Part shown: piece after piece, positions 20,323-34,337 of the stretch
Position numbering within the stretch: position 1 is the stretch's first letter
Layout of the letters: every line of letters starts with the position of its first letter
Assembly (NCBI GenBank): GCA_018698915.1
Contig: JABIPN010000006.1
Coordinates: forward strand, 1 to 57,424
Source of the DNA: Candidatus Woesearchaeota archaeon
GTDB lineage: Archaea; Nanobdellota; Nanobdellia; UBA10117; ARS21
Direction: 5' to 3'
DNA: 57,424 nt
Notes under the pieces: generated by a model
Databases searched by the model: none
Told to the model about the DNA's origin: nothing
What the model saw: only the letters and a program-made list of their open reading frames with translations
Program-made: the position numbers and the translations under genes

Positions 20323-20846
20323 ATATCAAAACTTATTGAATTTCTTCTCTGTTTATCAATTAGTTCAGTTCCTTCTTTTGTTAAATAATATTTCTTTGGT
20401 CTTGCACCAGTCCCATTAATAAATCCTCGATATTCTAGTTCAAGTAATTTATTTCTTATTGTTCGTTCTGATTTCTCCAATCCGTATGCTAGCTTTAGTT
20501 GCGTTGGCGATACTGCAAAGAATGTTGAATCTGCCTTTCCTTGTTGTAATAGGATCAAATATTGTAAATCAGACAAATTGAATAATGTTGGTTTAATTGT
20601 AGCAATTGGTTGCCGATGATTTTGTGTTGGTGCGTGTTGTTTTGGAAATTCGTTTGGAAATTCGTTTTTCCAATTACCTCTACTTTCCATTATTTTTTCC
20701 AATAGTTTTTCGTTGTTTTCTTGTAGTTTTTGCACTTTTTGTTCTAGTTTTTTTATAATTGAGTCTCGGTCGTAAATCCTTGATTTAAGTTGTTCTAGGT
20801 CACTTTTGTGATCATTTAGAATATTTCGAACAGACTTCGGAATCAT
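20319..20846 (-). CDS. Coiled-coil plus C-terminal winged-helix DNA-binding protein (unknown family)
   Basis: Heptad-rich N-terminus (LEQLKSRIYDRDSIIKKLEQKVQKLQENNEKLLEKI), Q/P-rich linker, C-terminal wH-like SERTIRNKLLELEYRGFINGTGARPKKYYLTKEG. Confidence 0.5.
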   Translation of the reverse strand: MIPKSVRNILNDHKSDLEQLKSRIYDRDSIIKKLEQKVQKLQENNEKLLEKIMESRGNWKNEFPNEFPKQHAPTQNHRQPIATIKPTLFNLSDLQYLILLQQGKADSTFFAVSPTQLKLAYGLEKSERTIRNKLLELEYRGFINGTGARPKKYYLTKEGTELIDKQRRNSISFDI

Positions 20847-20867
20847 TATTCTATTAACTCATTATTG

Positions 20868-20875
20868 TATAAAAA
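20868..20875 (-). promoter_or_regulatory. TATA-like box of the coiled-coil/wH gene
   Basis: TTTTTATA on the minus strand, 22-29 nt upstream of the ATG at 20846. Confidence 0.4.
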
Positions 20876-20884
20876 GATTTATTG

Positions 20885-20927
20885 TTTGAAAAATCTTTCC
20901 AGTGTTTTTTCCACAATTTTCCAATTG
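20885..20927. repeat. Copy 1 of a ~40-bp direct repeat made of TTTCCA half-sites
   Basis: tttgaaaaatctttccagtgttttttccacaattttccaattg aligns with 21027-21066 at roughly 85% identity with two small gaps. Confidence 0.8.
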
Positions 20928-20941
20928 ATTACCCTAAAGAT

Positions 20942-20963
20942 ACCCCTTCATTTCCAATGGAAC
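20942..20963 (-). other. Origin-recognition-box (ORB)-like element, full dyad plus G-string
   Basis: The minus strand reads GTTCCATTGGAAATGAAGGGGT. This is the TTCCA-n-TGGAA dyad followed by GAAAT..GGGGT, the pattern reported for Orc1/Cdc6 binding sites in archaeal origins. Confidence 0.55.
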
Positions 20964-21026
20964 TTATTTTAAATATGTATACATTGAGCCTATCAGTTTA
21001 ATTTTGTCCAGTTTGTTTGGAAAAGT

Positions 21027-21066
21027 TTTGGAAAAATCTTTCCAATGTTTTCCACTAATTTCCAAT
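21027..21066. repeat. Copy 2 of the ~40-bp TTTCCA direct repeat
   Basis: tttggaaaaatctttccaatgttttccactaatttccaatg. It overlaps the last codons of the Cas4-like ORF. A further TTTCCA follows at 21068-21073. Confidence 0.8.
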
Positions 21067-21795
21067 GTTTTCCAGAGAAGTTTGGACCTTTATTTGATTG
21101 TTTTTGTCCGTATCTTTCTTATTAAAACAAATATCATAGAATTCGCAATAATTGCATAAGTAAGACTCCTCTCTAGTAGGAGGTGTTTTTGTTTTTAGTG
21201 CATTTGAAAGAACGGTGCCTCTTGCTTCCAAATAACCACTCATATTTCTTTTTTCTACTTCAAATACTTTTATTTTACTTAGTGAGAAATAAACAATAAC
21301 TAATTTCTTTACTTCTTTTTGTTTTGATTCAGAAAGCATTGAGAAGTAAGATTGTACTTGCATAGTATGGGCAAGTTTTGGTGATTTAGGAATGCGCTCA
21401 ATTGTTTTGAACTCATACATTACATTATCTGAAAATACATCAATGAATCCTATTGCTGAAAAATTTACAAAGGGGAGTTCCAAGAATACTTCCTGTTCAT
21501 CTTCAGGAATATGATCTTGAAAGAAATTATGAATTGCGTGTCCTCTTGAAAAAATCCACAGCTTTTCTAACGAAATTGGCACTTCCTCCACCAACCCATA
21601 ATAGGAATTTCTTAAACAATGTGAAGTTAATCGCGTTACACCAAATCTTGGTTTTTTGTTTGGATCTTTCTTTTTTCTTGGTTTTTGTCCCGCAAGTAAT
21701 GCTGCAAGAACTACTCTTGGGTAGTTTTCGAACTCAGAGTTTTTTACTTCAGCGATATCTCTTACTACACCATCAGGACATAATATTTTAGTCAT
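21055..21795 (-). CDS. Cas4/Dna2-type PD-(D/E)XK nuclease with a 4-Cys Fe-S cluster (no CRISPR context)
   Basis: N-terminal Cys (TSHCLRNSYY), GHAIHNF, IGFIDVF (Asp), YEFKT (E-x-K), QVQSYF (QxxxY), C-terminal CNYCEFYDIC (C-x2-C-x5-C). 8-nt overlap with the PolD large-subunit gene. Confidence 0.7.
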   Translation of the reverse strand: MTKILCPDGVVRDIAEVKNSEFENYPRVVLAALLAGQKPRKKKDPNKKPRFGVTRLTSHCLRNSYYGLVEEVPISLEKLWIFSRGHAIHNFFQDHIPEDEQEVFLELPFVNFSAIGFIDVFSDNVMYEFKTIERIPKSPKLAHTMQVQSYFSMLSESKQKEVKKLVIVYFSLSKIKVFEVEKRNMSGYLEARGTVLSNALKTKTPPTREESYLCNYCEFYDICFNKKDTDKNNQIKVQTSLENIGN

Positions 21796-24700
21796 TGATA
21801 AAATCTCCCAGTCCTATTTGTTTTGTTGCATCTCGTCCAAAAACAGATTCTATTCGGCTATTGAATAAATTTATGGATTCTCTTAAGTATTCACTTGTTC
21901 CTTCAATTTTAATTAGTTGTAGGGTTGGTTCAAGATATTTCTTAACTGAACCTTCACTTATTGTGTAAATTACTTTTTGTTTTCCACAATTTAAACATTT
22001 TCCTGCTAGAGGTATTCTTCGATATTTTTCATTACAAGCAACGCATCTAAATCGTTGCATTGTAAATTTACGCATGTTTCCTTTAAGATCTCGAATAAAA
22101 TGTCCAGTTATTATTAATTCTCCAACTTTGTTGAGATCTACCGCCCTTATTTTTCTTGCGAGTTCTATTTGTCCTTCCATCTTCTCAACCATCGTAGGTA
22201 AATATTTGTAAGCTGATACATTTACTCCCTTATTCATATTTGATACTGAGTGTGTGAATCCATGATTTTGATATTGTTCTTCCTTATCGACTACGTCTCC
22301 AATTGATTTTACTTTTGAATCCCACGGATATTTCATTTCTAATGCTGCATTATAGAAATCTAACGAGTATTCCCAGGCTATGTTTAAATCATAAACTTCA
22401 TCATCAACTTCTTTTGAATTTAGTATTGTTGAAATAACTAATGGTGCATCCATACTTCTTGCGCCTCTTCGATCTGGAAGAAAGTCTCGTGAAAAATTAA
22501 GAAATGCGTCTAATACTAACATTATTGCAGTTTCTTCACCATCTAAATCTCTTCGCTGTGCAGCATGCCACATTGGATGTGCTAAAATTGCAGCTATATT
22601 TGAAAATCCGATAATTCTTCCTACAATTCCCGCAGAAGTATGTGGTGCTAGACCTATAACTAGTTGTCCTATTAGATCTGATTCAATAGCGATATTGTAG
22701 TGTGCAGAGATATTGTAGAGATTTACTAATGACTCATCAACAAAATCTGCAACGCGTTTTAAAACTGCTCCTGCAGATTCAATACCTAATGAGCTTTCGC
22801 TCGGTAATATTATATCTTGAGGAAATATTTCTACAAGTTGAGTTTTTTCAGTTAGTTGTTGTCCTTTGAAATCGTGCGTATATCCTAATTTATGTGCTTT
22901 TTTTATCGATAGACCAATTTCCTCAGGTGTGAAGTGTGTTGTTCCTAGTTCTGTTGCATCATACCTGACAGTTCCATCCTTATTAACCCTCAAAGAATGT
23001 TTTGCTCGGAGTACTCCTTTGACTGGATGTTCAACATAACGAAACTTGTTCATTGTTTCTCTTACACCTTTTATTAATTTTGGAAATTCACCTTCCCAAT
23101 TAGATCTTATGTTTTTTGATAATTTGGGTAATTCATACTTTCTTCTTTCATATGCAACACACTTTGGAGTTTCAGGTGAAGTGTATTTTTTCTTCGTAAA
23201 ATAATCAATATATTGTTGTTGCGTGTTTAGAGAATTACAGTGTTCACATTTTGTGAATATTGTTCTTTTTTCACAGTCAAGACATTTTATTATTGGAAAC
23301 TCTGCGGTAATGTGTCCTTTCTTTATTGATTCATTGAAAGATCTTAATCTTCCTCCTTCTGCTCCGACAGGGAATAAAAAATTTGGTGAACCTTTCATAT
23401 CTCTCATTTTTGCCTTCTCAGGTCTACCCATTCGTGCACCAATTCCAGTACCGAATTTTGGTCTGATTTGTATATCTTTGTTGAAAAACAATTTCAAAAT
23501 TGTTTTATTTAATTCTGTTAATATTATTTTGTTTTCTTTTATTTGGTGTGGGCATCCAATTAACTCCAATAATCTTTTTTCTGGTTGGTTTGCATTCATA
23601 TCTGTTGAGATATAATTTTTTAGTAGAATTATTTGTTTATTATCTAATGCATCAAAATAGAATGTGAAATTTGGGTGTATTGGTATTTTGAACTCTTGAG
23701 ATAATCTTAGCGCTGTTTCAAAATTAATAGTTGGAGGAATAAATTTATTGATAAAATCTTCAGTTAGATTGTGTTTTTTGTTTGGGTTGTTTTTTATTGC
23801 CTCTTTCAGTTCCAACAGCCACCATTCAGGACAATATCCTGGAGGTACTAGAAAATGCCCGTTTTCTGTGAATTCGCCTGGTGAGATTAACAAATCTCCT
23901 AAGTATAGGATCTCATCAACGTCTTTTGATATTTCTTTTGCTTCTTCTTCCGTTTCAAGTTTTACAACGGATCCGTCTTTTAGTTTAACAATTGGACCTT
24001 CTATTGAATCACAAGAAGTTAATGATGTTGATTTTCCTGGGCGTTCGACTCTTAGTTGTGTTCCAACTGCTAGAAAATTATCTAGTACTTGCATGGTGAT
24101 TGGAGATATTGCCCAAGATCCGTGACCTGTTAATCTTGATCTCCCATATCTCAATCTAAATCCTCCTTGTCGAAGTGGATGTGTGAATACGGGACGTCCT
24201 GCTACAATTTCAGCAATATATGCATAATTCGGTTTTAGTTTTGATTCTGATCCATCCTCGATTTCTTCTTTTGATGTTTTGGCGTGAATTCGCTTCTTTA
24301 TATCTTGATAATCATTTAACCATTGCCAATCCAATCCGAAATCTTTTCCCCATTCATTTAATTTCTTCATTACTTTGGCACCTTTGAGCGGTAGACCATC
24401 AGTGAGCATTAGTGCCATGCCCCCTCTAATTCTGTCGGTTGTTATTCGTTCCAGTCCTTTGTAATTTGATACTTGTAGTTGTGAGGTTGGATCTCCATCA
24501 ATTTCTACAGGTAAATTAGAAACAATAAATTCTATTTCTTCAATGGTTGGTTTGTATTGTTTTCTTTCTACGCGTTCATAATAATCTGTTACTTCTGTAT
24601 ACATTCGTTTTAATTCTTTATCAGTAGGATCGTATTTTTCAATTCCCTGTTGTATTCTAACATAATCTGCAATCACTGTTGTGACTGCCATTGCTGTTGC

Positions 24701-25183
24701 ACCGCCACCCCTGATTGGTCCAGCATAACATAGAGCCAAATATTTTTTTCCGTCTTTTCTGTCTTTTATTTTTACATCAATTAATCCTTCAAGTGGTGCA
24801 GATACTACTCCTTGTGTTATGTATGCGAATCCTGTTCTTACACCAATGCTTATTGCGGTTTGTTTATCTTCAAATTTGCATATTTTTTCTGAAGCAATTT
24901 CGTTCGCCAATACCAGTGCAACTCTCCAATCTCCAAAACCATATTCTTTTTCTAATTCGCTAATTCTTTGTACAACGCCGCTTCCAATTAAATTTGGCGA
25001 AATTGAACCCATAATTGCTTCAACTCTTTCTGCTACAGATGCAGCTATGGGAATGTCACAATTTAGTTGTGGGTCGATTCCGGTTTTTCTGGCAGTGTTT
25101 GCAATATCATGCAATTCTAAAGTTTCGGATTTTAATTCTGAGAAATACTTCTTAATTTGTGTTGAAGCAATAATGTCTGACAT
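21788..25183 (-). CDS. DNA polymerase II (PolD) large catalytic subunit DP2
   Basis: 1131 aa, colinear with archaeal DP2. Cys-rich Zn modules CLDCEKRTIFTKCEHC and CVACNEKYRRIPLAGKCLNC. Length shows no intein. Confidence 0.93.
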   Translation of the reverse strand: MSDIIASTQIKKYFSELKSETLELHDIANTARKTGIDPQLNCDIPIAASVAERVEAIMGSISPNLIGSGVVQRISELEKEYGFGDWRVALVLANEIASEKICKFEDKQTAISIGVRTGFAYITQGVVSAPLEGLIDVKIKDRKDGKKYLALCYAGPIRGGGATAMAVTTVIADYVRIQQGIEKYDPTDKELKRMYTEVTDYYERVERKQYKPTIEEIEFIVSNLPVEIDGDPTSQLQVSNYKGLERITTDRIRGGMALMLTDGLPLKGAKVMKKLNEWGKDFGLDWQWLNDYQDIKKRIHAKTSKEEIEDGSESKLKPNYAYIAEIVAGRPVFTHPLRQGGFRLRYGRSRLTGHGSWAISPITMQVLDNFLAVGTQLRVERPGKSTSLTSCDSIEGPIVKLKDGSVVKLETEEEAKEISKDVDEILYLGDLLISPGEFTENGHFLVPPGYCPEWWLLELKEAIKNNPNKKHNLTEDFINKFIPPTINFETALRLSQEFKIPIHPNFTFYFDALDNKQIILLKNYISTDMNANQPEKRLLELIGCPHQIKENKIILTELNKTILKLFFNKDIQIRPKFGTGIGARMGRPEKAKMRDMKGSPNFLFPVGAEGGRLRSFNESIKKGHITAEFPIIKCLDCEKRTIFTKCEHCNSLNTQQQYIDYFTKKKYTSPETPKCVAYERRKYELPKLSKNIRSNWEGEFPKLIKGVRETMNKFRYVEHPVKGVLRAKHSLRVNKDGTVRYDATELGTTHFTPEEIGLSIKKAHKLGYTHDFKGQQLTEKTQLVEIFPQDIILPSESSLGIESAGAVLKRVADFVDESLVNLYNISAHYNIAIESDLIGQLVIGLAPHTSAGIVGRIIGFSNIAAILAHPMWHAAQRRDLDGEETAIMLVLDAFLNFSRDFLPDRRGARSMDAPLVISTILNSKEVDDEVYDLNIAWEYSLDFYNAALEMKYPWDSKVKSIGDVVDKEEQYQNHGFTHSVSNMNKGVNVSAYKYLPTMVEKMEGQIELARKIRAVDLNKVGELIITGHFIRDLKGNMRKFTMQRFRCVACNEKYRRIPLAGKCLNCGKQKVIYTISEGSVKKYLEPTLQLIKIEGTSEYLRESINLFNSRIESVFGRDATKQIGLGDFIND

Positions 25184-25204
25184 ACTAAATTCATTATGAT
25201 GATG

Positions 25205-25212
25205 TTTAAATA
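25205..25212. promoter_or_regulatory. Single quasi-symmetric TATA element shared by two divergent genes
   Basis: TTTAAATA lies 22-29 nt from the DP2 ATG (25183, minus) and 20-27 nt from the ATG at 25232 (plus). Confidence 0.45.
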
Positions 25213-25231
25213 TGATTGTGTGAAAAAGTAT

Positions 25232-25570
25232 ATGATGAAAACGCGTGGAAGAGGTCGTCCTGCATTTAGTCCAATACGGAATAATTTAGTTGAATTGTTG
25301 TTTTTTGTTGGTGAAGGTTATGGTTATGAATTATATAAAAAATATATACAGGTTTTTCATAAAACAACTATGCGATCGGTTTATTATCACTTGAATAAGG
25401 GTGTTGAATTGGGTGTTTTTAAAATTGAAAAAATTGAAAATATTCCAGGATCTTATTCCTGGGGTGAAGGTGTTCGGAGAGTTGTATTTACTCTCGGAGA
25501 AAATGCTGAACCTAAAAAAGATACTCGAGTTTTAAAACGATTGAAGATTGTTGAAAAAAATAACCCCTGA
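25232..25570 (+). CDS. Small winged-helix (PadR/ArsR-like) DNA-binding protein
   Basis: YGYELYKKYIQVFHKTTMRSVYYHLNKGVELGVFK. The ORF opens at 25196, but Met13 (25232) gives canonical TATA spacing and a 48-bp divergent intergenic region. Confidence 0.5.
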   Translation: MMKTRGRGRPAFSPIRNNLVELLFFVGEGYGYELYKKYIQVFHKTTMRSVYYHLNKGVELGVFKIEKIENIPGSYSWGEGVRRVVFTLGENAEPKKDTRVLKRLKIVEKNNP

Positions 25571-25718
25571 GCCCTTGATTTCTACTGGAGATTTCATTTT
25601 TATATTAAATTTCATTTTTTCTCTTCTTTCTTTTCTATATTGAAAATAATAATATAATAATAAACAAATTTGATAAAAATATAAACAATAAAATAAGTTC
25701 TATAAGAAATAAAGGGGT
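25570..25718. other. Predicted chromosomal replication origin (two inverted ORB-like boxes flanking an AT-rich unwinding element)
   Basis: 25570-25591 reads TCTCCAGTAGAAATCAAGGGCT on the minus strand. 25697-25718 reads GTTCTATAAGAAATAAAGGGGT on the plus strand. Between them is ~105 bp at about 10% G+C by hand count. The orc1/cdc6 ATG lies 120 bp downstream. Confidence 0.6.
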
Positions 25719-25837
25719 AGGAGGTATTCAAAACAATCATACGTCAAAAGTACAAGCCTTAAGTATAGTGCTTTTATAAAAATATTAGCGTGTCAAGAGG
25801 ATAAATTATTTTAAGGTACATTTCTTATGGAAAGTTT

Positions 25838-27118
25838 ATGACGGATAATCAAACATCTCTTGATAAAAAATTCAAATCAGAAGAAGACAAAAAAAATACT
25901 TCTGAAACTAAGCGAGAAAGAGATGAACTTGACGATTTATTTGACGATTTTGTATCTAAAGAATCTTTATTCAAGGATAAGGATGTTTTATCTTTGCGTC
26001 ACGTTCCAAATACAATACCTCATCGTCAAAAACAAATCAAAAAACTAGGCATGATTTTAGCACCAGCTTTACGAAATGATCGACCTTCAAATATTTTTAT
26101 ATATGGTAAAACTGGAACTGGAAAAACACTTTGCACACTCCACACATTGAATCGGATTGTTGAACGAGTTAAAGATAGCGATGTTAATCTAACGTTTGCA
26201 TATCTCAACTGCAAATTAAAAAAAGTTGCAGATACTGAATATAGAATAATTGCTGCACTTGCTAAAAATTTAGGTGAAAAAGTTCCAGCAACAGGATTAC
26301 CCACAGATGAAGTATACAATATTTTTTTGAAAAAATTAGATGAAACTGAACAAGTTGTAATCTTAGTTTTAGATGAAATAGATAGACTTGTACAGAAAAC
26401 AGGTGACGAAATTCTTTACACCTTAACTAGAATTAATTCTGAACTTAAACGAGCAAAATTATGTTTAATTGGAATTTCAAATGATGTACGTTTTATTGAG
26501 AATATAGATCCGCGAGTAAAGAGTTCATTAAGTGAAGAAGAATTAATTTTTCCACCATACAATGCTCTTGAATTAAAAGATATTCTAAGTGAAAGATCGG
26601 AATTAGCGTTTACAAAAGACGTAATTAACAGCGGAGTTCTTGCAAAGTGTGCAGCATATGCAGCAAAGGAACACGGTGATGCTCGTCGTGCGTTAGATCT
26701 ATTAAGAGTTGCGGGCGAAGTTGCAGAACGCGCAGCAGCAGATAGTGTTGAAATGGAACATATACGTGAGGCAGAAGATAAAATTGAGAAAAATAGAATC
26801 TTAGAATTAGTTAAGACATTACCAAACCAATCCAAAATTTTGATATATTCAATATTTTTTCTAAACAAACAAAAACATAAACTTGAAACTGGAGAGATTT
26901 ATGAAGCATATGCTGATTTATGCAAAGTTAATGATACTTCAATTTTAACCCAAAGAAGAATATCTGACTTAATTTCAGAATTAGATATGTTGGGTTTAAT
27001 TAATGCAAGAGTAATAAGTAAAGGCAGACACGGGAGAACTCGAGAAATATATTCCACAATACCTTCAGATTTAACTGAAATAATGAGTTCGGAATTGAGA
27101 GTTGAATTAATGTTATGA
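25838..27118 (+). CDS. cdc6: Orc1/Cdc6 replication initiator
   Basis: AAA+ Walker A IYGKTGTGKT, Walker B VLDEID, sensor regions, C-terminal winged helix. ATGA overlap with the PolD small subunit gene. Confidence 0.92.
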   Translation: MTDNQTSLDKKFKSEEDKKNTSETKRERDELDDLFDDFVSKESLFKDKDVLSLRHVPNTIPHRQKQIKKLGMILAPALRNDRPSNIFIYGKTGTGKTLCTLHTLNRIVERVKDSDVNLTFAYLNCKLKKVADTEYRIIAALAKNLGEKVPATGLPTDEVYNIFLKKLDETEQVVILVLDEIDRLVQKTGDEILYTLTRINSELKRAKLCLIGISNDVRFIENIDPRVKSSLSEEELIFPPYNALELKDILSERSELAFTKDVINSGVLAKCAAYAAKEHGDARRALDLLRVAGEVAERAAADSVEMEHIREAEDKIEKNRILELVKTLPNQSKILIYSIFFLNKQKHKLETGEIYEAYADLCKVNDTSILTQRRISDLISELDMLGLINARVISKGRHGRTREIYSTIPSDLTEIMSSELRVELML

Positions 27119-28485
27119 GTAATCAAGAAATTGTAAAGAAATTATTAGATAAAGGAATCCTACCCACAGCTGAAAATATAGCTCAAGAATCCACAAATGT
27201 AACAATTGTAAAACCGCGAATTGATGATTTAAGAGCAAGAGTAAAGATTGTAAAAGAATTTGATTATAAACAGAAAAAAATCACAGCAGATGATTTCACC
27301 ACACACTACAGAGAAAGATACAAAACAATGAGGACTATATTATTTAATCGACCTGAAGCTGCATCAGCAGTATCCATTGATCGCGTAAAAGATATGCTTT
27401 CAGATGAAGATCAAGTTATTATTGGAATCGTTTCAGATGTAGCTAGAATGTATACTGGAACTGTCAAACTTATTGTGGAGGATTTAACTAGTCAGATTAC
27501 AGTCATCATATCCTCAAAAAATAATGATTTGATTGAAGAAGCTAAGTTTTTGACCTTAGATGAAGTCTTAATATTCAAAGGTCGTGTTAGAAAGGGAGTT
27601 ATGTTCTTACACGCCATCATACGACCAGATGTTCCACAGAAGAAAGAAACATTTAGTCCCGAAGAAGTTTATTCAGTCTTCTCCGGAGATATACATGTAG
27701 GTTCAAATCTATTTTTACCAAAGCAATTTTCAAATTTTATTGATTGGTTGAGTGGAAAAGTAGGAACTGAACGACAACGAGAAATTGCAAGAAAGACCAA
27801 ATATTTTTACATTCCAGGAGATCTTGTTGATGGAATTGGTATTTATCCTGGACAAGAAAAAGAACTAAAGATTACTAATTTAAGAAGTCAGTATGAAGAA
27901 TTATCAAAATTTTTATCTAGAGTTCCTGATGACAAACAAATAATAATTTGTCCAGGAAATCATGACTCTGGTGTCCGATTGGAGGAACCTCAGCCACGCA
28001 TGCAAGATTATGCAGAATCAATACTCGAACTTCCAAACGTAACAATGGTAACAAACCCGTCTTACACAAATATTCACTCAATGGATAATTATTCTGGACA
28101 AGATGTTTTAATGTATCATGGATATTCCTTTGACAGATTAATTGATCAAGTTGAAGGTTTGAGATTGGCAGGTGGTTATGAAAAAGCAGATGAAATTCAC
28201 AAGTTTTTATTGAAAAGAAGGCATTTGAGCCCATCACATAATTTGAATCTAACAATCCCTATGAAACAAGACTCACACATCATTTCACAAATTCCAGATA
28301 TAATGGTTTCAGGACATATTCATAAAGCAAATATTGGAAATTATAAAAACACAATTTCAATTTCTGGAAGTTGTTGGCAAGCAGTAACTGATTTTCAACT
28401 CAAATTTGGACACGTACCAGATCCTGGAATGATTCCAATCATAAATCTAAAAACACGAAAAGGTAGTATGCTCAGTTTCAAATAA
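27115..28485 (+). CDS. DNA polymerase II (PolD) small exonuclease subunit DP1
   Basis: OB-fold region followed by calcineurin-like phosphoesterase motifs GDIHVGS, IPGDLVDGIG, PGNHD, SGHIH. Confidence 0.9.
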   Translation: MSNQEIVKKLLDKGILPTAENIAQESTNVTIVKPRIDDLRARVKIVKEFDYKQKKITADDFTTHYRERYKTMRTILFNRPEAASAVSIDRVKDMLSDEDQVIIGIVSDVARMYTGTVKLIVEDLTSQITVIISSKNNDLIEEAKFLTLDEVLIFKGRVRKGVMFLHAIIRPDVPQKKETFSPEEVYSVFSGDIHVGSNLFLPKQFSNFIDWLSGKVGTERQREIARKTKYFYIPGDLVDGIGIYPGQEKELKITNLRSQYEELSKFLSRVPDDKQIIICPGNHDSGVRLEEPQPRMQDYAESILELPNVTMVTNPSYTNIHSMDNYSGQDVLMYHGYSFDRLIDQVEGLRLAGGYEKADEIHKFLLKRRHLSPSHNLNLTIPMKQDSHIISQIPDIMVSGHIHKANIGNYKNTISISGSCWQAVTDFQLKFGHVPDPGMIPIINLKTRKGSMLSFK

Positions 28486-31446: not shown

Positions 31447-32118
31447 TTATTTATTTGTATTAGTAAGTTTTTTTACGAATTTTTGCATTTTTTCTTTATG
31501 CCCAGCACCAATCACAATTAATAGTTTTGAATCAGGATATTGAACTGTAATCAATTTAATTTGGTTTTGCATATATTTGTCACGTTCAGAAACAAGAACT
31601 CTATAAAAATTTGGAAATTTATGACTCAATTCACTAATCAATTTATGAACTAATTTATCCTTTGGAACTTTTTGTAAATCAAAATTTACTTTTCCGCTGC
31701 CAAAACTGCCAAAAATTAAGTAAAATACTAATTTTAGTTTTTCAGGAACTGGAACTGTTTTTGATAGACGTCTAAGAGTTATACCAATATCTCTATCAAT
31801 TAATGCGCGCTTGGCACCAATATTTTTCGCTTCAATAATTGCAGTTTTCATATCAATACCTGGCTGTTGACCTGTCCGTTTTCCAAGAATTTTTTGAGAC
31901 ATTGAACCGATCAAATAAAATATAAATCCAAAAAATCCTAATTTTGAAGCAGTTTTCAGATTCATCCTTCTACGTTTTTGGTTCATTAGACCCATATATC
32001 TTTGAGCATCCAATTCAATTGCAACAATATCGGGTTTAAATTCAATCATAGCTTTCTTTATTTCGGAAACACTTTGTTTTGAAATATGAGATGTTCCAAT
32101 TATTTTTATTTTAACCAT
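31447..32118 (-). CDS. TraB/PrgY/GumN-family protein
   Basis: IIGTSHISKQSV and PDIVAIELD N-terminal motifs, central hydrophobic hairpin, IGAGH near the C-terminus. Confidence 0.7.
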   Translation of the reverse strand: MVKIKIIGTSHISKQSVSEIKKAMIEFKPDIVAIELDAQRYMGLMNQKRRRMNLKTASKLGFFGFIFYLIGSMSQKILGKRTGQQPGIDMKTAIIEAKNIGAKRALIDRDIGITLRRLSKTVPVPEKLKLVFYLIFGSFGSGKVNFDLQKVPKDKLVHKLISELSHKFPNFYRVLVSERDKYMQNQIKLITVQYPDSKLLIVIGAGHKEKMQKFVKKLTNTNK

Positions 32119-32166
32119 ATTCTAATTATTAGAAATGCTTTTATTTAAAAACACTATTGAATTGAT

Positions 32167-32427
32167 ATGTTAAATACAAAAAACTTAAACAGCGTTCAAG
32201 GATTATCAGTCTATACTGATGCTGGTGAATTTTTTGGAATAATTGAAGAAGCAATTTTACATACCAATAAAGTAGATTCTTGGAAAGTAAAAGCAACAAC
32301 AAGATCATATTTGTCTCGTGCAATGCCTGGCGCAAAAGGAGTGATTCTACCTCACCATCACATTAAAGCAATTGGTGATGTTGTTATAATTTCAAGAGCT
32401 GCAGCCCCAATAATGACTGAAGAGTAA
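32167..32427 (+). CDS. PRC-barrel domain protein (second paralogue)
   Basis: LNSVQGLSVYTDAGEFFGIIEEAILHTNKVDSWKV. 86 aa, the same size as the ORF at 18799. Confidence 0.6.
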   Translation: MLNTKNLNSVQGLSVYTDAGEFFGIIEEAILHTNKVDSWKVKATTRSYLSRAMPGAKGVILPHHHIKAIGDVVIISRAAAPIMTEE

Positions 32428-32474
32428 TTTTGTCACTCTGATATCTTTTTAAGTTTTGAGGCTATCGTTAGTTG

Positions 32475-34337
32475 ATGGATTTTAAGAACACATCTAAGAT
32501 TAAAGTTCCTACAAAGTTAATTGATCAAATTATTGGTCAGACTCGCGCAGTGTCAATAATTAGTAAGGCTGCAAAACAAGGACGTCATGTTCTTTTAATT
32601 GGTGATCCAGGTACTGGAAAATCTATGCTAGGTCAAGCACTGTCTGAATTGGTTCCGCGAAAGGAACTAAGAGATATTTTAATTCTTCCAAATCAAAAAG
32701 ATGAAAACAATCCAAAAGTTCATTCTCTACCTTCTGGTCGTGGACAAGAAATAGTTGAACGTACTAAACAGCGTATGAATGTTGGTGGAAGAAAAAGTAC
32801 AATCATTTTTCTAGCTTTAGCAATTTTTACTGCATTGTTTCCGTGGTGGATTAGAAAAACTCACGGAGATATTATGGCAGCAGCATCACTTATTTCTGGA
32901 ATGATGTTTCTAATGTTATATGGTGCAATGATGGGGATGGGAATGAGAAAAAGACAAACTCTTGGACCAAAACTTTTAGTGGATACAGCCAAATTAAAGA
33001 CTGCACCATTTATTGATGCAACTGGTGCTCATTCAGGATCATTACTTGGTGATGTTCGACACGATCCATTTCAATCCGGCGGTTTGGGAACTCCAGCACA
33101 TATGAGAGTTGAACCTGGAATGATTCACCGAGCAAACAAAGGAGTATTATTCATTGATGAGGTTGCAACAATGGATATGAAAACTCAGCAAGATTTATTG
33201 ACTGCAATGCAAGATCGAAAATATTCAATTACTGGACAGTCTGAGCGAAGTGCTGGAGCAATGGTTCGTACCGATCCTGTTCCTTGTAATTTTATTTTGG
33301 TTGGAGCAGGAAATAAAGATACAATCCGAAGAATGCATCCTGCATTAAGATCTAGAATTAGAGGATATGGTTATGAGGTTGTCATGGAAAATTTTATTGA
33401 TGATAATCCAAAAAACAGAGAATATTATTACAAATTTGTAGCCCAAGAAATATTGAAAGATGGGAAGATTCCACATTTTTCAAAAGGCGCGTGTGATGAA
33501 ATAATTAGAATTTCACGGCGGATGTCTGGACGTAAAAATAAATTAAGTATAAAGTTTAGAGAACTTGGTGGAATAATTAGAAGCGCAGGTGATTTGGCAG
33601 TTGAAGAAAAGACCAAATTAGTTAACACAGAGCAAGTTATTCGGGCTTTGAAAATTTCAAAGACTTTGGAACAACAAATTGCAGATAAACATATTGAGCA
33701 TATTTTGGATTACCGAGTCGTTCAAAAAGAAGGGACTCAAGTTGGAAGAGTTAATGGTTTGGCAGTTATTGCAGATTCAGGAATTGTACTTCCAATTGCA
33801 AGCGAGGCTGCAAAAGGCGGAAAGCGTAGGGAAATTATTGCAACCGGAAGTCTTGGGAAAATTGCCAAAGAAGCAATTGATAATGTTAGTGCAATAATCA
33901 TGAAACATTTTGGAGAGTCCATTAAGGACAAATACGATATATATGTTCAATTTATTCAAACCTTTGAAGGAATCGAAGGAGATTCAGCAAGCGTTTCAGT
34001 TGCAACATCAATAATTTCCGCATTAAAGAATATTCCAATTAGACAAGAGATTGCAATGACGGGAAGTTTATCCGTAAGAGGAGAAGTTTTACCCGTAGGT
34101 GGCGTTACTCCTAAGATTGAAGCAGCAATTGAAGCAGGATTAAAAGAAGTTATCATTCCTGAAAGAAATAAGAAAGATATTGTCTTGAGTTCTAAATTAC
34201 GAAATAAGATTAAAATTCATTATGCAAATAACTTAGTTGATGTTCTTGAAGTTGCGTTTGACAAGCGAAAAGGTAAAAAAGTTATTAAGGCACTTAGTTC
34301 AAATGGAACTAAATCCAAAAAAACTAAAAAGAATTGA
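32475..34337 (+). CDS. lon: Archaeal membrane-bound Lon protease (LonB)
   Basis: Walker A GDPGTGKS. Two TM helices are inserted in the AAA+ module ([30 protein letters not shown]). Protease domain with GDSASVS serine. TTG at 32472 precedes the ATG. Confidence 0.9.

What the first reader, a model, noticed from the sequence alone, without database searches (positions are those of the whole stretch)
25570..25837. oriC-like architecture upstream of orc1/cdc6: inverted ORB-like boxes around a ~10% GC unwinding element
The 267-bp gap upstream of orc1/cdc6 holds two 22-mers that share a pattern. 25591->25570 reads TCTCCAGTAGAAATCAAGGGCT and 25697->25718 reads GTTCTATAAGAAATAAAGGGGT. Both fit the archaeal origin recognition box layout: a TTCCA-n-TGGAA-type dyad, then GAAAT, then a G-string. 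They are inverted relative to each other. They flank ~105 bp that I count at about 10% G+C. That stretch has a T-rich left half and an A-rich right half, plus a tandem ATTTCATTTTT repeat at about 25591 and 25609. The gene context matches the classic Pyrococcus origin locus: cdc6 is ATGA-coupled to PolD DP1. Here PolD DP2 is divergent rather than co-directional. Genes left of this point run mostly on the minus strand, and the genes immediately right of it (to 29.3 kb) on the plus strand.
Basis: partly seen in the sequence, partly recalled or inferred. Interest (0 to 1): 0.6.

Follow-up and report, generated by a model that had tools for sequence, protein, structure and literature searches.

The report
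Replication origin of a Woesearchaeote
The gap in front of the orc1 gene of this tiny marine DPANN archaeon is very probably its chromosomal replication origin, built in the ordinary archaeal way. The one unusual point is that the genome's strong strand bias flips exactly there with the "inverted" polarity so far described for haloarchaea.

Summary
Two inverted 22-mers (25570-25591 on the minus strand, 25697-25718 on the plus strand) flank 105 bp of 10.5% G+C. Only one other 105-bp window in the 524-kb assembly is that AT-rich.

- **Uniqueness.** A matrix built from these two boxes and the third (20942-20963) scores 29-32.5 on them. Nothing else in the genome scores above 17.4.
- **Match to known boxes.** The boxes match the Cdc6-bound ORB1 of Pyrococcus furiosus at up to 22 of 34 positions.
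- **The initiator.** The adjacent gene encodes an Orc1-1-class protein.
- **Conservation.** In 80 related Woesearchaeota loci such boxes are 45-fold enriched in the 500 bp upstream of orc1. They usually sit in the same outward-facing inverted layout around a spacer of about 14% G+C.
- **Strand bias.** Strand-corrected third-codon skew changes sign in this gap more sharply than at any of the 247 gene boundaries scanned in the assembly. The same flip occurs in five other genomes of the family and in a 919-kb single-contig relative. The leading strand would be C/A-rich, as reported for haloarchaea.

Further conserved parts are a central near-palindrome, a mini-ORB over the orc1 promoter, and a satellite ORB 4.6 kb away.

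Verdict: a real origin, a new member of a known kind. In-vivo firing is untested because read depth was too low.

The parts
25570..25591 (-). ORB1 (left origin recognition box): TCTCCAGTAGAAATCAAGGGCT. The G-run points away from the AT-rich spacer. A second G-run (CAGGGG) follows, reaching back to 25560 and overlapping the stop codon of the upstream ORF.
   Evidence: matrix score 29.9. 22 of 34 positions match P. furiosus ORB1 without gaps. Conserved in 8 relatives of two genera.
25592..25696 (.). Duplex unwinding element: 105 bp at 10.5% G+C, with a T-rich left half and an A-rich right half.
   Evidence: In relatives the spacer between inverted boxes has a median of 13.9% G+C, against 34.8% for the whole loci.
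25632..25645 (.). Central near-palindrome TTTCTATATTGAAA, at the point where the spacer flips from T-rich to A-rich. It may bind an accessory factor, or mark where melting starts.
   Evidence: Invariant block CTATATTGA.AATAA in alignment A1. Exact TTTCnATATnGAAA lies within 600 bp upstream of orc1 in 19 of 62 relatives, against 4 copies in 777 kb elsewhere.
25697..25718 (+). ORB2 (right origin recognition box): GTTCTATAAGAAATAAAGGGGT, followed by the conserved extension AGGAGG (to 25724).
   Evidence: matrix score 29.0. GGGTAGG.GG is conserved in alignment A1. Forms a 31-nt, 87% complementary inverted repeat with the distal box.
25800..25816 (+). Probable BRE/TATA of orc1 (GATAAATTATTTTAAGG). 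It is centred about 28 nt before the ATG, which implies a leaderless mRNA.
   Evidence: Conserved as GATAAA.TATTTTAAGG in 9 sequences. That it acts as the promoter is inferred from position only.
25820..25834 (-). Mini-ORB (minus strand CTTTCCATAAGAAAT) between the TATA box and the orc1 start codon. Probably an Orc1 autoregulation site.
   Evidence: core pattern hit at 25820-25831. TTTC..ATGGAA is invariant in 9 sequences of two genera.
25838..27118 (+). orc1/cdc6, an Orc1-1-class initiator (AAA+ domain, lid, C-terminal winged helix).
   Evidence: Pfam Cdc6_C, Cdc6_lid and AAA_22. PDB 2qby_A at 8.6e-104 and 2v1u_A at 1.2e-100.
27115..28485 (+). PolD small subunit DP1, overlapping orc1 by ATGA.
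21788..25183 (-). PolD large subunit DP2, on the opposite strand upstream of the origin.
   Evidence: The same gene order is seen in L034.
25196..25570 (+). Conserved small ORF (124 aa, no Pfam hit) whose stop codon abuts ORB1.
   Evidence: Its coding sequence is conserved in relatives (first alignment blocks).
20942..20963 (-). Satellite ORB3, GTTCCATTGGAAATGAAGGGGT. It is the best match to the consensus and lies 4.6 kb from the origin, upstream of the promoter of a 175-aa coiled-coil gene.
   Evidence: score 32.5. 16 of 17 core positions equal P. furiosus ORB1. One or two copies at -4.75 to -4.9 kb in five relatives of two genera.
20885..21066 (.). Two blocks of TTTCCA half-site repeats (20885-20925 and 21028-21066) bracketing ORB3.
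   Evidence: repeat families D10, D18. Conserved within the genus, reduced in the sister genus.

Best explanation
This is the chromosomal replication origin (oriC) of a marine Woesearchaeote, of the Orc1-1 / ORB-DUE-ORB type.

**Inferred mechanism.**
1. Monomers of the Orc1 encoded next door bind the two inverted boxes (ORB1 and ORB2).
2. In the ATP-bound form they recruit MCM onto the 105-bp, 10% G+C spacer between the boxes.
3. The duplex opens around the central near-palindrome TTTCTATATTGAAA.
4. Forks leave in both directions.

**Accessory sites (also inferred).** A third, shorter box lies between the orc1 TATA box and its start codon. It lets Orc1 repress its own leaderless transcript. 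A satellite ORB 4.6 kb away, beyond DP2, is a further Orc1 site. It more likely regulates or organises the locus than fires itself.

**Shown here:** the sequence anatomy, its uniqueness in the genome, its conservation, the class of the initiator, and a sign change of strand composition centred on the gap.

**Not shown here:** Orc1 binding, MCM loading, firing in vivo, and autoregulation.
For: 1. **Anatomy.** Inverted ORBs with outward G-runs flank one of the two most AT-rich 105-bp windows of the assembly.
2. **Uniqueness.** The three boxes score 29-32.5 on their own matrix. The best other site in 524 kb scores 17.4.
3. **Match to proven sites.** The boxes match experimentally Cdc6-bound P. 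furiosus ORB1 at 22, 20 and 17 of 34 positions. The core GTTCCAnTGGAAATGAA is nearly identical.
4. **Initiator class.** The adjacent Orc1 is closest to the two Orc1-1 proteins crystallised on ORB DNA.
5. **Conservation.** In 80 Woesearchaeota loci there are 3.54 boxes per kb in the 500 bp upstream of orc1, against 0.079 per kb elsewhere, a 45-fold difference. 31 of 62 eligible loci show the minus/plus pair; only 3 show solely the opposite order. Non-coding blocks are conserved across two genera.
6. **Strand asymmetry in this genome.** At four-fold degenerate sites, corrected for gene strand:
   - left of the gap: r_GC +0.19 [0.10, 0.28], r_AT -0.37 [-0.42, -0.34];
   - right of the gap (25.8-32.1 kb): r_GC -0.31 [-0.50, -0.10], r_AT +0.17 [0.05, 0.29].

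   This is the largest change among the 247 gene boundaries scanned. No other contig of 13 kb or more changes sign.
7. **Strand asymmetry in relatives.** The same flip at the homologous gap occurs in G001, G003, G005, G007 and G009. In G014, a 919-kb single contig, the largest jump of r_AT and drop of r_GC lie at 630-640 kb. Its only ORB cluster (636.8-637.1 kb) and its only orc1 lie there too.
8. **Polarity has a precedent.** Experimentally mapped haloarchaeal origins show the same inverted GC-skew polarity, with a C-rich leading strand (PMC1868953).
9. **rRNA orientation.** 23S rRNA genes on the same contig point away from the site in G005, G019 and G046.
Against: - There is no in-vivo evidence. 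The four runs that hold this genome give only contig-level depth of 7-12x, which is flat within noise.
- By the bacterial rule the polarity of the switch would mark a terminus.
- In this genus the reversed sign lasts only 6.5 kb to the right. The asymmetry is then about zero for the remaining 25 kb, which a simple symmetric bidirectional origin does not predict.
- In other families of the order the strong asymmetry runs through the homologous module unchanged (G011, G023). In G019 it has the opposite polarity.
- One 23S gene (G045) points toward the site.
- In Thermococcus kodakarensis a canonical oriC and Cdc6 are dispensable. I saw this only in the title and abstract of PMC5663688 listed; I did not read the paper.
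- The assembly is 88% complete, so further ORB clusters could be missing.
Confidence: 0.8

Rival explanations
1. The module is an Orc1-binding regulatory region and not the place where replication mainly starts. Under this reading Orc1 auto-represses itself and controls the polD and neighbouring genes. Replication would start elsewhere or by recombination, as in Thermococcus kodakarensis.
For: - A mini-ORB sits on the orc1 promoter and a satellite ORB sits upstream of another promoter.
- In G011 and G023 the strand asymmetry passes through the homologous module without changing.
- Earlier notes of this scan report the same for other Woesearchaeota (unchecked leads).
Against: - In this genome and five family members the asymmetry changes sign exactly here and nowhere else in the contigs examined.
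- A pure operator needs neither a 105-bp 10% G+C spacer nor a conserved central element.
Confidence: 0.1
2. The gap is a fork-convergence (termination) site. If the bacterial rule holds (leading strand G/T-rich), forks arrive at 25.6 kb from both sides, perhaps stalled by ORB-bound Orc1, and the origin lies elsewhere.
For: G/T-rich strands run toward the site on both flanks.
Against: - Inverted polarity is documented at mapped archaeal origins.
- No second ORB cluster or origin-like region exists in the assembly. The Orc1 paralogue has only an ~80-bp promoter gap beside it.
- At 32.1-32.5 kb, where a divergent point would then lie in this genus, there is only a 48-bp promoter gap and ordinary genes.
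- rRNA genes point away from the site in 3 of 4 cases.
Confidence: 0.06
3. It is a chance resemblance in an AT-rich promoter gap, or an unannotated RNA gene.
For: Intergenic DNA in a 32% G+C genome is AT-rich, and two 22-mers sharing 15 of 22 positions is weak evidence on its own.
Against: - The motif is unique in the genome.
- It is 45-fold enriched at the homologous place in 80 loci.
- No Rfam match at E up to 1 in 20700-26000.
Confidence: 0.01

Closest known systems
Pyrococcus abyssi / P. furiosus oriC (Thermococcales oriC-cdc6-dp1-dp2 island; PMC1904270)
   Same: - Inverted long ORBs plus mini-ORBs lie upstream of cdc6, which is followed by dp1.
- The box core is nearly identical: GTTCCAGTGGAAATGAA in Pyrococcus, GTTCCATTGGAAATGAA here.
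- A second ORB cluster a few kb away is also bound by Cdc6 in Pyrococcus.
- ORB clusters occur nowhere else in the genome.
   Different: - Here the G-run follows the core directly. In Pyrococcus an ACTCT spacer comes first.
- DP2 is on the other side and the other strand.
- The satellite cluster lies beyond DP2, not inside dp1.
- There is a single compact spacer, not the larger Pyrococcus origin region with two AT-rich stretches and many mini-ORBs.
- The skew polarity is inverted.
Sulfolobus / Saccharolobus oriC1 (ORB3-DUE-ORB2 next to orc1-1; PMC12141716)
   Same: - Two inverted ORBs, each bound by an Orc1-1 monomer, flank an AT-rich DUE. The module is about 130 bp there and 149 bp here.
- A short conserved motif sits midway in the DUE.
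- The initiator gene is adjacent.
- The Orc1 here is closest to Orc1-1.
   Different: - The central motif differs in sequence: ATTATACAAAC (the ucm) there, TTTCTATATTGAAA here.
- No UBP homologue was looked for.
- Sulfolobus has three origins with three initiators. Here only one ORB origin was found.
Haloarchaeal origins with inverted GC skew (Haloferax volcanii oriC1 and relatives; PMC1868953)
   Same: - Origins next to orc1 with ORB-type repeats and a DUE coincide with peaks, not minima, of G/C disparity, so the leading strand is C-rich.
- rrn operons point away from the origins.
   Different: - Haloarchaea have GC-rich multi-replicon genomes with many orc1 paralogues and several origins.
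- Here the genome is about 0.6 Mb at 32% G+C, with one main Orc1.
- The asymmetry here is much stronger. That comparison rests on my judgement and was not measured on haloarchaea.
ORB-rich negative regulatory region beside Haloarcula hispanica oriC2 (as summarised in PMC5333045)
   Same: An extra cluster of initiator boxes beside, but outside, the core origin that modulates it.
   Different: The function of the satellite ORB here is untested. It sits 4.6 kb away, in another gene's upstream region.

Membership tests
Archaeal Orc1-1-type oriC (ORB-DUE-ORB) | Adjacent gene for an Orc1/Cdc6 initiator of the Orc1-1 class | tested here: met
   Pfam Cdc6_C, Cdc6_lid and AAA_22. Best PDB relatives are 2qby_A (Orc1-1, 8.6e-104) and 2v1u_A (1.2e-100), against Orc1-3 at 1.1e-46.
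Archaeal Orc1-1-type oriC (ORB-DUE-ORB) | Two or more ORB elements with a TTCCA...GAAA dyad core and a G-run | tested here: met
   Three full boxes and one mini-ORB. 22, 20 and 17 of 34 positions match P. furiosus ORB1.
Archaeal Orc1-1-type oriC (ORB-DUE-ORB) | Boxes in inverted orientation flanking an AT-rich unwinding element | tested here: met
   The minus/plus pair lies 105 bp apart. The spacer has 10.5% G+C and is one of the two lowest 105-bp windows in 524 kb.
Archaeal Orc1-1-type oriC (ORB-DUE-ORB) | Box clusters confined to the origin region of the genome | tested here: met
   No other site scores above 17.4, against 29 or more for the boxes. The same holds in the 919-kb relative G014. 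Caveat: the assembly is 88% complete.
Archaeal Orc1-1-type oriC (ORB-DUE-ORB) | Conservation of the non-coding architecture in relatives | tested here: met
   45-fold enrichment upstream of orc1 in 80 loci, and 31 of 62 eligible loci with the same pair layout. Conserved blocks in alignment A1.
Archaeal Orc1-1-type oriC (ORB-DUE-ORB) | Change of strand-composition asymmetry at the site | tested here: met
   The largest change among the 247 boundaries scanned, and the only sign change in any contig of 13 kb or more. Repeated in G001, G003, G005, G007, G009 and G014. The polarity is inverted, as in haloarchaea.
Archaeal Orc1-1-type oriC (ORB-DUE-ORB) | Specific binding of the cognate Orc1 to the boxes | not testable with these tools
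   Needs EMSA, footprinting or ChIP.
Archaeal Orc1-1-type oriC (ORB-DUE-ORB) | Initiation in vivo (marker-frequency peak, initiation-point mapping, ARS activity) | tested here: inconclusive
   Four marine runs hold the locus, but only as assembler contigs at 7-12x word depth. The profile is flat within noise.
ucm/UBP accessory element of Sulfolobales origins | The 11-bp ucm sequence (ATTATACAAAC) midway in the DUE | tested here: not met
   The central conserved element here is TTTCTATATTGAAA. It is analogous in position only, so I do not file it as a ucm.
ucm/UBP accessory element of Sulfolobales origins | Presence of a UBP homologue that binds the motif | not tested
   No search for UBP was made.

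The most novel reading that the evidence does not exclude
Within one archaeal order, the same conserved Orc1/ORB/DUE module relates to replication-strand bias in three different ways.

- In this family it is a sharp switch with a C/A-rich leading strand (haloarchaeal-type inversion).
- In G019 it is a switch of bacterial polarity.
- In G011 and G023 the bias runs straight through it.

In this genus the rightward arm also keeps the reversed bias for only 6.5 kb before the bias vanishes.

If these patterns reflect present-day fork movement, Woesearchaeales differ between lineages in which strand accumulates C-to-T changes. They would also differ in how far each fork travels, up to strongly asymmetric or nearly one-way replication from a canonical bidirectional-looking origin.
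Probability: 0.2. Interest if true: 0.65.

Novelty: new member of a known kind. Interest (0 to 1): 0.4.

Why it matters
DPANN archaea are uncultured or grow only in co-culture, so their replication origins are known only by prediction. This locus gives a well-supported origin for a Woesearchaeal family. It defines an order-wide box consensus (tTTCCAtAaGAAATaAAGGGGT), a conserved central DUE motif and a satellite box. Any of these can be used to annotate origins, orient contigs and set the zero point for growth-rate (peak-to-trough) estimates in marine metagenomes.

The strong strand bias flips here with inverted polarity, but does not flip in sister families. That makes this family the natural reference case for working out how these very small genomes are actually copied.

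Tried and rejected
- **Raw cumulative GC skew on the 57-kb contig.** It is dominated by coding-strand effects and shows no clean extremum. I replaced it with third-position and four-fold skew corrected for gene strand.
- **Whole-sequence and gene-orientation curves of the 919-kb relative G014.** They show a broad trough at 600-705 kb that contains the locus but does not pinpoint it. The strand-corrected measure does pinpoint it.
- **Marker frequency from public runs.** Only Logan contigs at 7-12x depth were available, which is not informative.
- **Using the ribosomal-protein operon strand to fix the polarity.** This is confounded. Nearly all genes there lie on one strand, and codon usage of highly expressed genes mimics the signal.
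- **Looking for a second origin.**
  - The Orc1 paralogue on C7 (and at G005 C1:111-112 kb) has only an ~80-bp divergent promoter gap, with no repeats or AT tract.
  - C29:9866-10220 is as AT-rich as the DUE but has no ORB.
  - 32.1-32.5 kb, where the asymmetry changes again, has no origin-like feature.
- **Pooled ±7 kb skew regression over 44 loci.** It is too noisy and too dependent on the shared gene set to give an order-wide polarity. The counts were 11 plus-to-minus switches, 4 minus-to-plus, and 18 with the same non-zero sign on both sides.
- **An RNA gene in the gap.** No Rfam match.

Full report
**What the window is.**
The window is one whole contig (C31) of a 523,628-base, 35-contig, about 88% complete assembly with roughly 33% G+C. 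Related contigs found with the Orc1 protein are titled Candidatus Woesearchaeota, Nanoarchaeota or Nanobdellota. They come from marine, vent and groundwater metagenomes. The organism is therefore a small-genome DPANN archaeon of the Woesearchaeales.

**Checking the observation.**
- The two 22-mers are at the stated coordinates and read as stated.
- They are inverted, with their G-runs pointing away from each other.
- The 105 bp between them has 10.5% G+C. Only one other place in the assembly has a 105-bp window that low.
- The spacer is T-rich on the left (32 T, 8 A) and A-rich on the right (38 A, 16 T). It flips at a near-palindrome, TTTCTATATTGAAA, at 25632-25645.
- The gene context is as described. 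DP2 is 21788-25183 on the minus strand. A 124-aa ORF with no Pfam match is 25196-25570. orc1 is 25838-27118 and overlaps DP1 (27115-28485) by ATGA. A signal-peptide peptidase follows, then a split Hef on the other strand.

**Is it more than chance?**
- Searching the whole assembly with each box and up to five mismatches finds only the boxes themselves and one more site, 20942-20963 on the minus strand: GTTCCATTGGAAATGAAGGGGT.
- A degenerate pattern covering core and G-run occurs three times in 524 kb, all here.
- With a matrix built from the three boxes, they score 29.0-32.5. The best other site scores 17.4.
- The longest inverted repeat in the region is a 31-nt, 87% match between ORB2 and the distal box.

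**Comparison with proven Orc1 sites.**
The P. furiosus ORB1 oligonucleotide bound by purified Cdc6 (PMC1904270) reads GTTCCAGTGGAAATGAAACTCTGGGGGG on its other strand.
- The distal box shares 16 of the first 17 positions with it.
- Over 34 ungapped positions the three boxes share 22, 20 and 17.
- The adjacent protein is closest to the two Orc1-1-class proteins solved on ORB DNA: 2qby_A at 8.6e-104 and 2v1u_A at 1.2e-100. It is far less similar to Orc1-3 or ORC2.

**Conservation.**
- In 30 genomes of the genus, family and order, nearly all have a pair of such boxes directly upstream of orc1.
- In 80 further loci with 7-kb flanks, hits scoring 15 or more number 125 in the 500 bp before the orc1 match (3.54 per kb). 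There are 71 in the remaining 899 kb (0.079 per kb).
- Of 62 loci with enough upstream sequence, 31 have a minus-strand box followed by a plus-strand box. Only 3 have solely the opposite order.
- The spacer has a median length of 168 bp and a median of 13.9% G+C, against 34.8% for the loci.
- The consensus of the 125 boxes is tTTCCAtAaGAAATaAAGGGGT. It is partly shaped by the matrix used to find them.

An alignment of the gap from nine genomes of two genera (Orc1 72-83% identical) shows six conserved non-coding blocks:
1. ORB1.
2. The centre of the spacer, CTATATTGA.AATAA.
3. ORB2 with a GGGTAGG.GG extension.
4. A BRE/TATA-like GATAAA.TATTTTAAGG, about 28 nt before the ATG.
5. TTTC..ATGGAA, immediately before the ATG.
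6. The ATG itself.

Block 5 is a mini-ORB on the minus strand. Its position between the TATA box and a leaderless start suggests autoregulation. That is an inference.

The central near-palindrome is found exactly within 600 bp upstream of orc1 in 19 of 62 relatives. Only 4 copies occur in 777 kb elsewhere. It takes the position of the Sulfolobus ucm, which is essential for oriC1 firing. Its sequence is different, so I treat it as analogous in position and not as a member of that motif.

**The distal box.**
- ORB3 lies in the 208-bp gap between a Cas4-like nuclease gene and a 175-aa coiled-coil gene.
- It is bracketed by two blocks of TTTCCA repeats.
- One or two ORBs sit at the same place (-4.75 to -4.9 kb) in five relatives of two genera.
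- Gene order around it is the same in the one relative I checked, L034.
- There is no comparably AT-rich tract beside it.
- The nearest precedent is the second Cdc6-bound ORB cluster of Thermococcales. Another is the ORB-rich region that restrains Haloarcula oriC2.
- I read it as a satellite Orc1 site of the origin, not a second origin.

**Strand composition in this genome.**
Raw skew on the contig is dominated by coding-strand effects. I therefore measured third-position and four-fold-site skew per gene and separated the coding-strand term from the DNA-strand term.
- This genome has a very strong DNA-strand asymmetry. Every contig of 13 kb or more has one uniform sign along its whole length, except this one.
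- On C31 all 23 genes left of the gap have T over A on the plus strand. Nearly all also have G over C, whichever strand they are coded on.
- From orc1 onwards the sign reverses.
- At four-fold sites, r_GC goes from +0.19 [0.10, 0.28] to -0.31 [-0.50, -0.10]. r_AT goes from -0.37 [-0.42, -0.34] to +0.17 [0.05, 0.29].
- Among the 247 gene boundaries scanned in the assembly, the 25570|25838 gap shows the largest change.

**Strand composition in relatives.**
- The same flip at the homologous gap is seen in G001 and G003 (same genus). It is also seen in G005, G007 and G009 (sister genus), where the reversed sign persists for 17 to about 90 kb.
- In the single-contig 919-kb relative G014, the largest genome-wide jump in r_AT and drop in r_GC lie at 630-640 kb. 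Its only ORB cluster (636.8-637.1 kb) and only orc1 lie there too.

**Polarity.**
The G/T-rich strands run toward the site, so forks leaving it would have C/A-rich leading strands. By the bacterial rule that marks a terminus. However, Norais et al. report exactly this inverted polarity at haloarchaeal origins, including origins they mapped experimentally, and conclude that the leading strand there is C-rich (PMC1868953).

As a weak independent check, 23S rRNA genes on the same contig as the ORB locus point away from it in G005, G019 and G046, and toward it in G045. I also found no alternative origin-like locus:
- The Orc1 paralogue has only an ~80-bp promoter gap shared with a DHH/RecJ-like gene.
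- The other very AT-rich region (C29) has no ORB.
- The second change point on this contig (32.1-32.5 kb) has nothing origin-like.

**What remains unexplained.**
- In this genus the reversed sign lasts only six genes (25.8-32.1 kb). After that the asymmetry is about zero for 25 kb.
- In the sister genus the reversed sign persists.
- Elsewhere in the order the homologous module shows bacterial-type polarity (G019) or no switch at all (G011, G023).
- Earlier notes of this scan report "no switch" for several other Woesearchaeota. My data reproduce that for two genomes, but show that this family is different.
- Marker-frequency analysis, the decisive test, was not possible. The four runs that hold the genome are available only as contigs at 7-12x depth.

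**Verdict.**
This is an Orc1-1-type ORB-DUE-ORB origin. It is ordinary in kind and new as a documented member for this lineage. It has a conserved central motif, a promoter mini-ORB and a satellite ORB. It also coincides with a sharp strand-bias switch of haloarchaeal-type inverted polarity. Binding, unwinding and firing are inferred, not shown.

Noticed in passing
G000 contig C29:9866-10220 (outside the window): This is the only other 105-bp stretch of 10.5% G+C or less in the assembly. It is a 355-bp intergenic region with three copies of TTTCAATATT(G), the same core as the near-palindrome at the centre of the DUE. It has no ORB.
   Followed up: partly
G000 contig C7:262-1296 (-) and C7:1376-2449 (+); G005 C1:111213-112244: A second Orc1/Cdc6 paralogue (28% identical to the main one) is paired head-to-head, about 80 bp apart, with a DHH/RecJ-like gene. 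I identified that gene by reading the translation only. In G005 the same pair lies 34 kb from the main orc1. There is no AT-rich repeat region beside it.
   Followed up: partly
window 32118-32472 and 32472-57361: The strand asymmetry changes again at the TraB-like / PRC-barrel / LonB junction. It is near zero for the remaining 25 kb (four-fold r_GC -0.05, r_AT -0.05), unlike every other contig of the assembly. The same is seen in G001 and G003, but not in the sister genus.
   Followed up: partly
window 25231-25623 and 32135-32160; 33143-33491: Assembler unitigs of four independent marine runs all break at the AT-rich origin gap and at 32.14-32.16 kb. One run (X4) spans the origin without differences. 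A dense patch of strain variants lies at 33.1-33.5 kb, inside the LonB gene.
   Followed up: no
window 25714-25724 and 25560-25570: Both origin boxes carry a second G-run beyond the 22-mer: GGGGTAGGAGG after ORB2, and CAGGGG after ORB1 (overlapping the stop codon of the small ORF). This recalls the long 34-bp ORBs of Pyrococcus. The ORB2 extension is conserved across two genera.
   Followed up: partly
G014:C1 about 210-245 kb (relative, 919-kb contig): A second strand-asymmetry switch of the same type as the one at the orc1/ORB locus has no Orc1 gene or ORB nearby. The ribosomal protein L2 gene lies at 212.8 kb on the plus strand.
   Followed up: no
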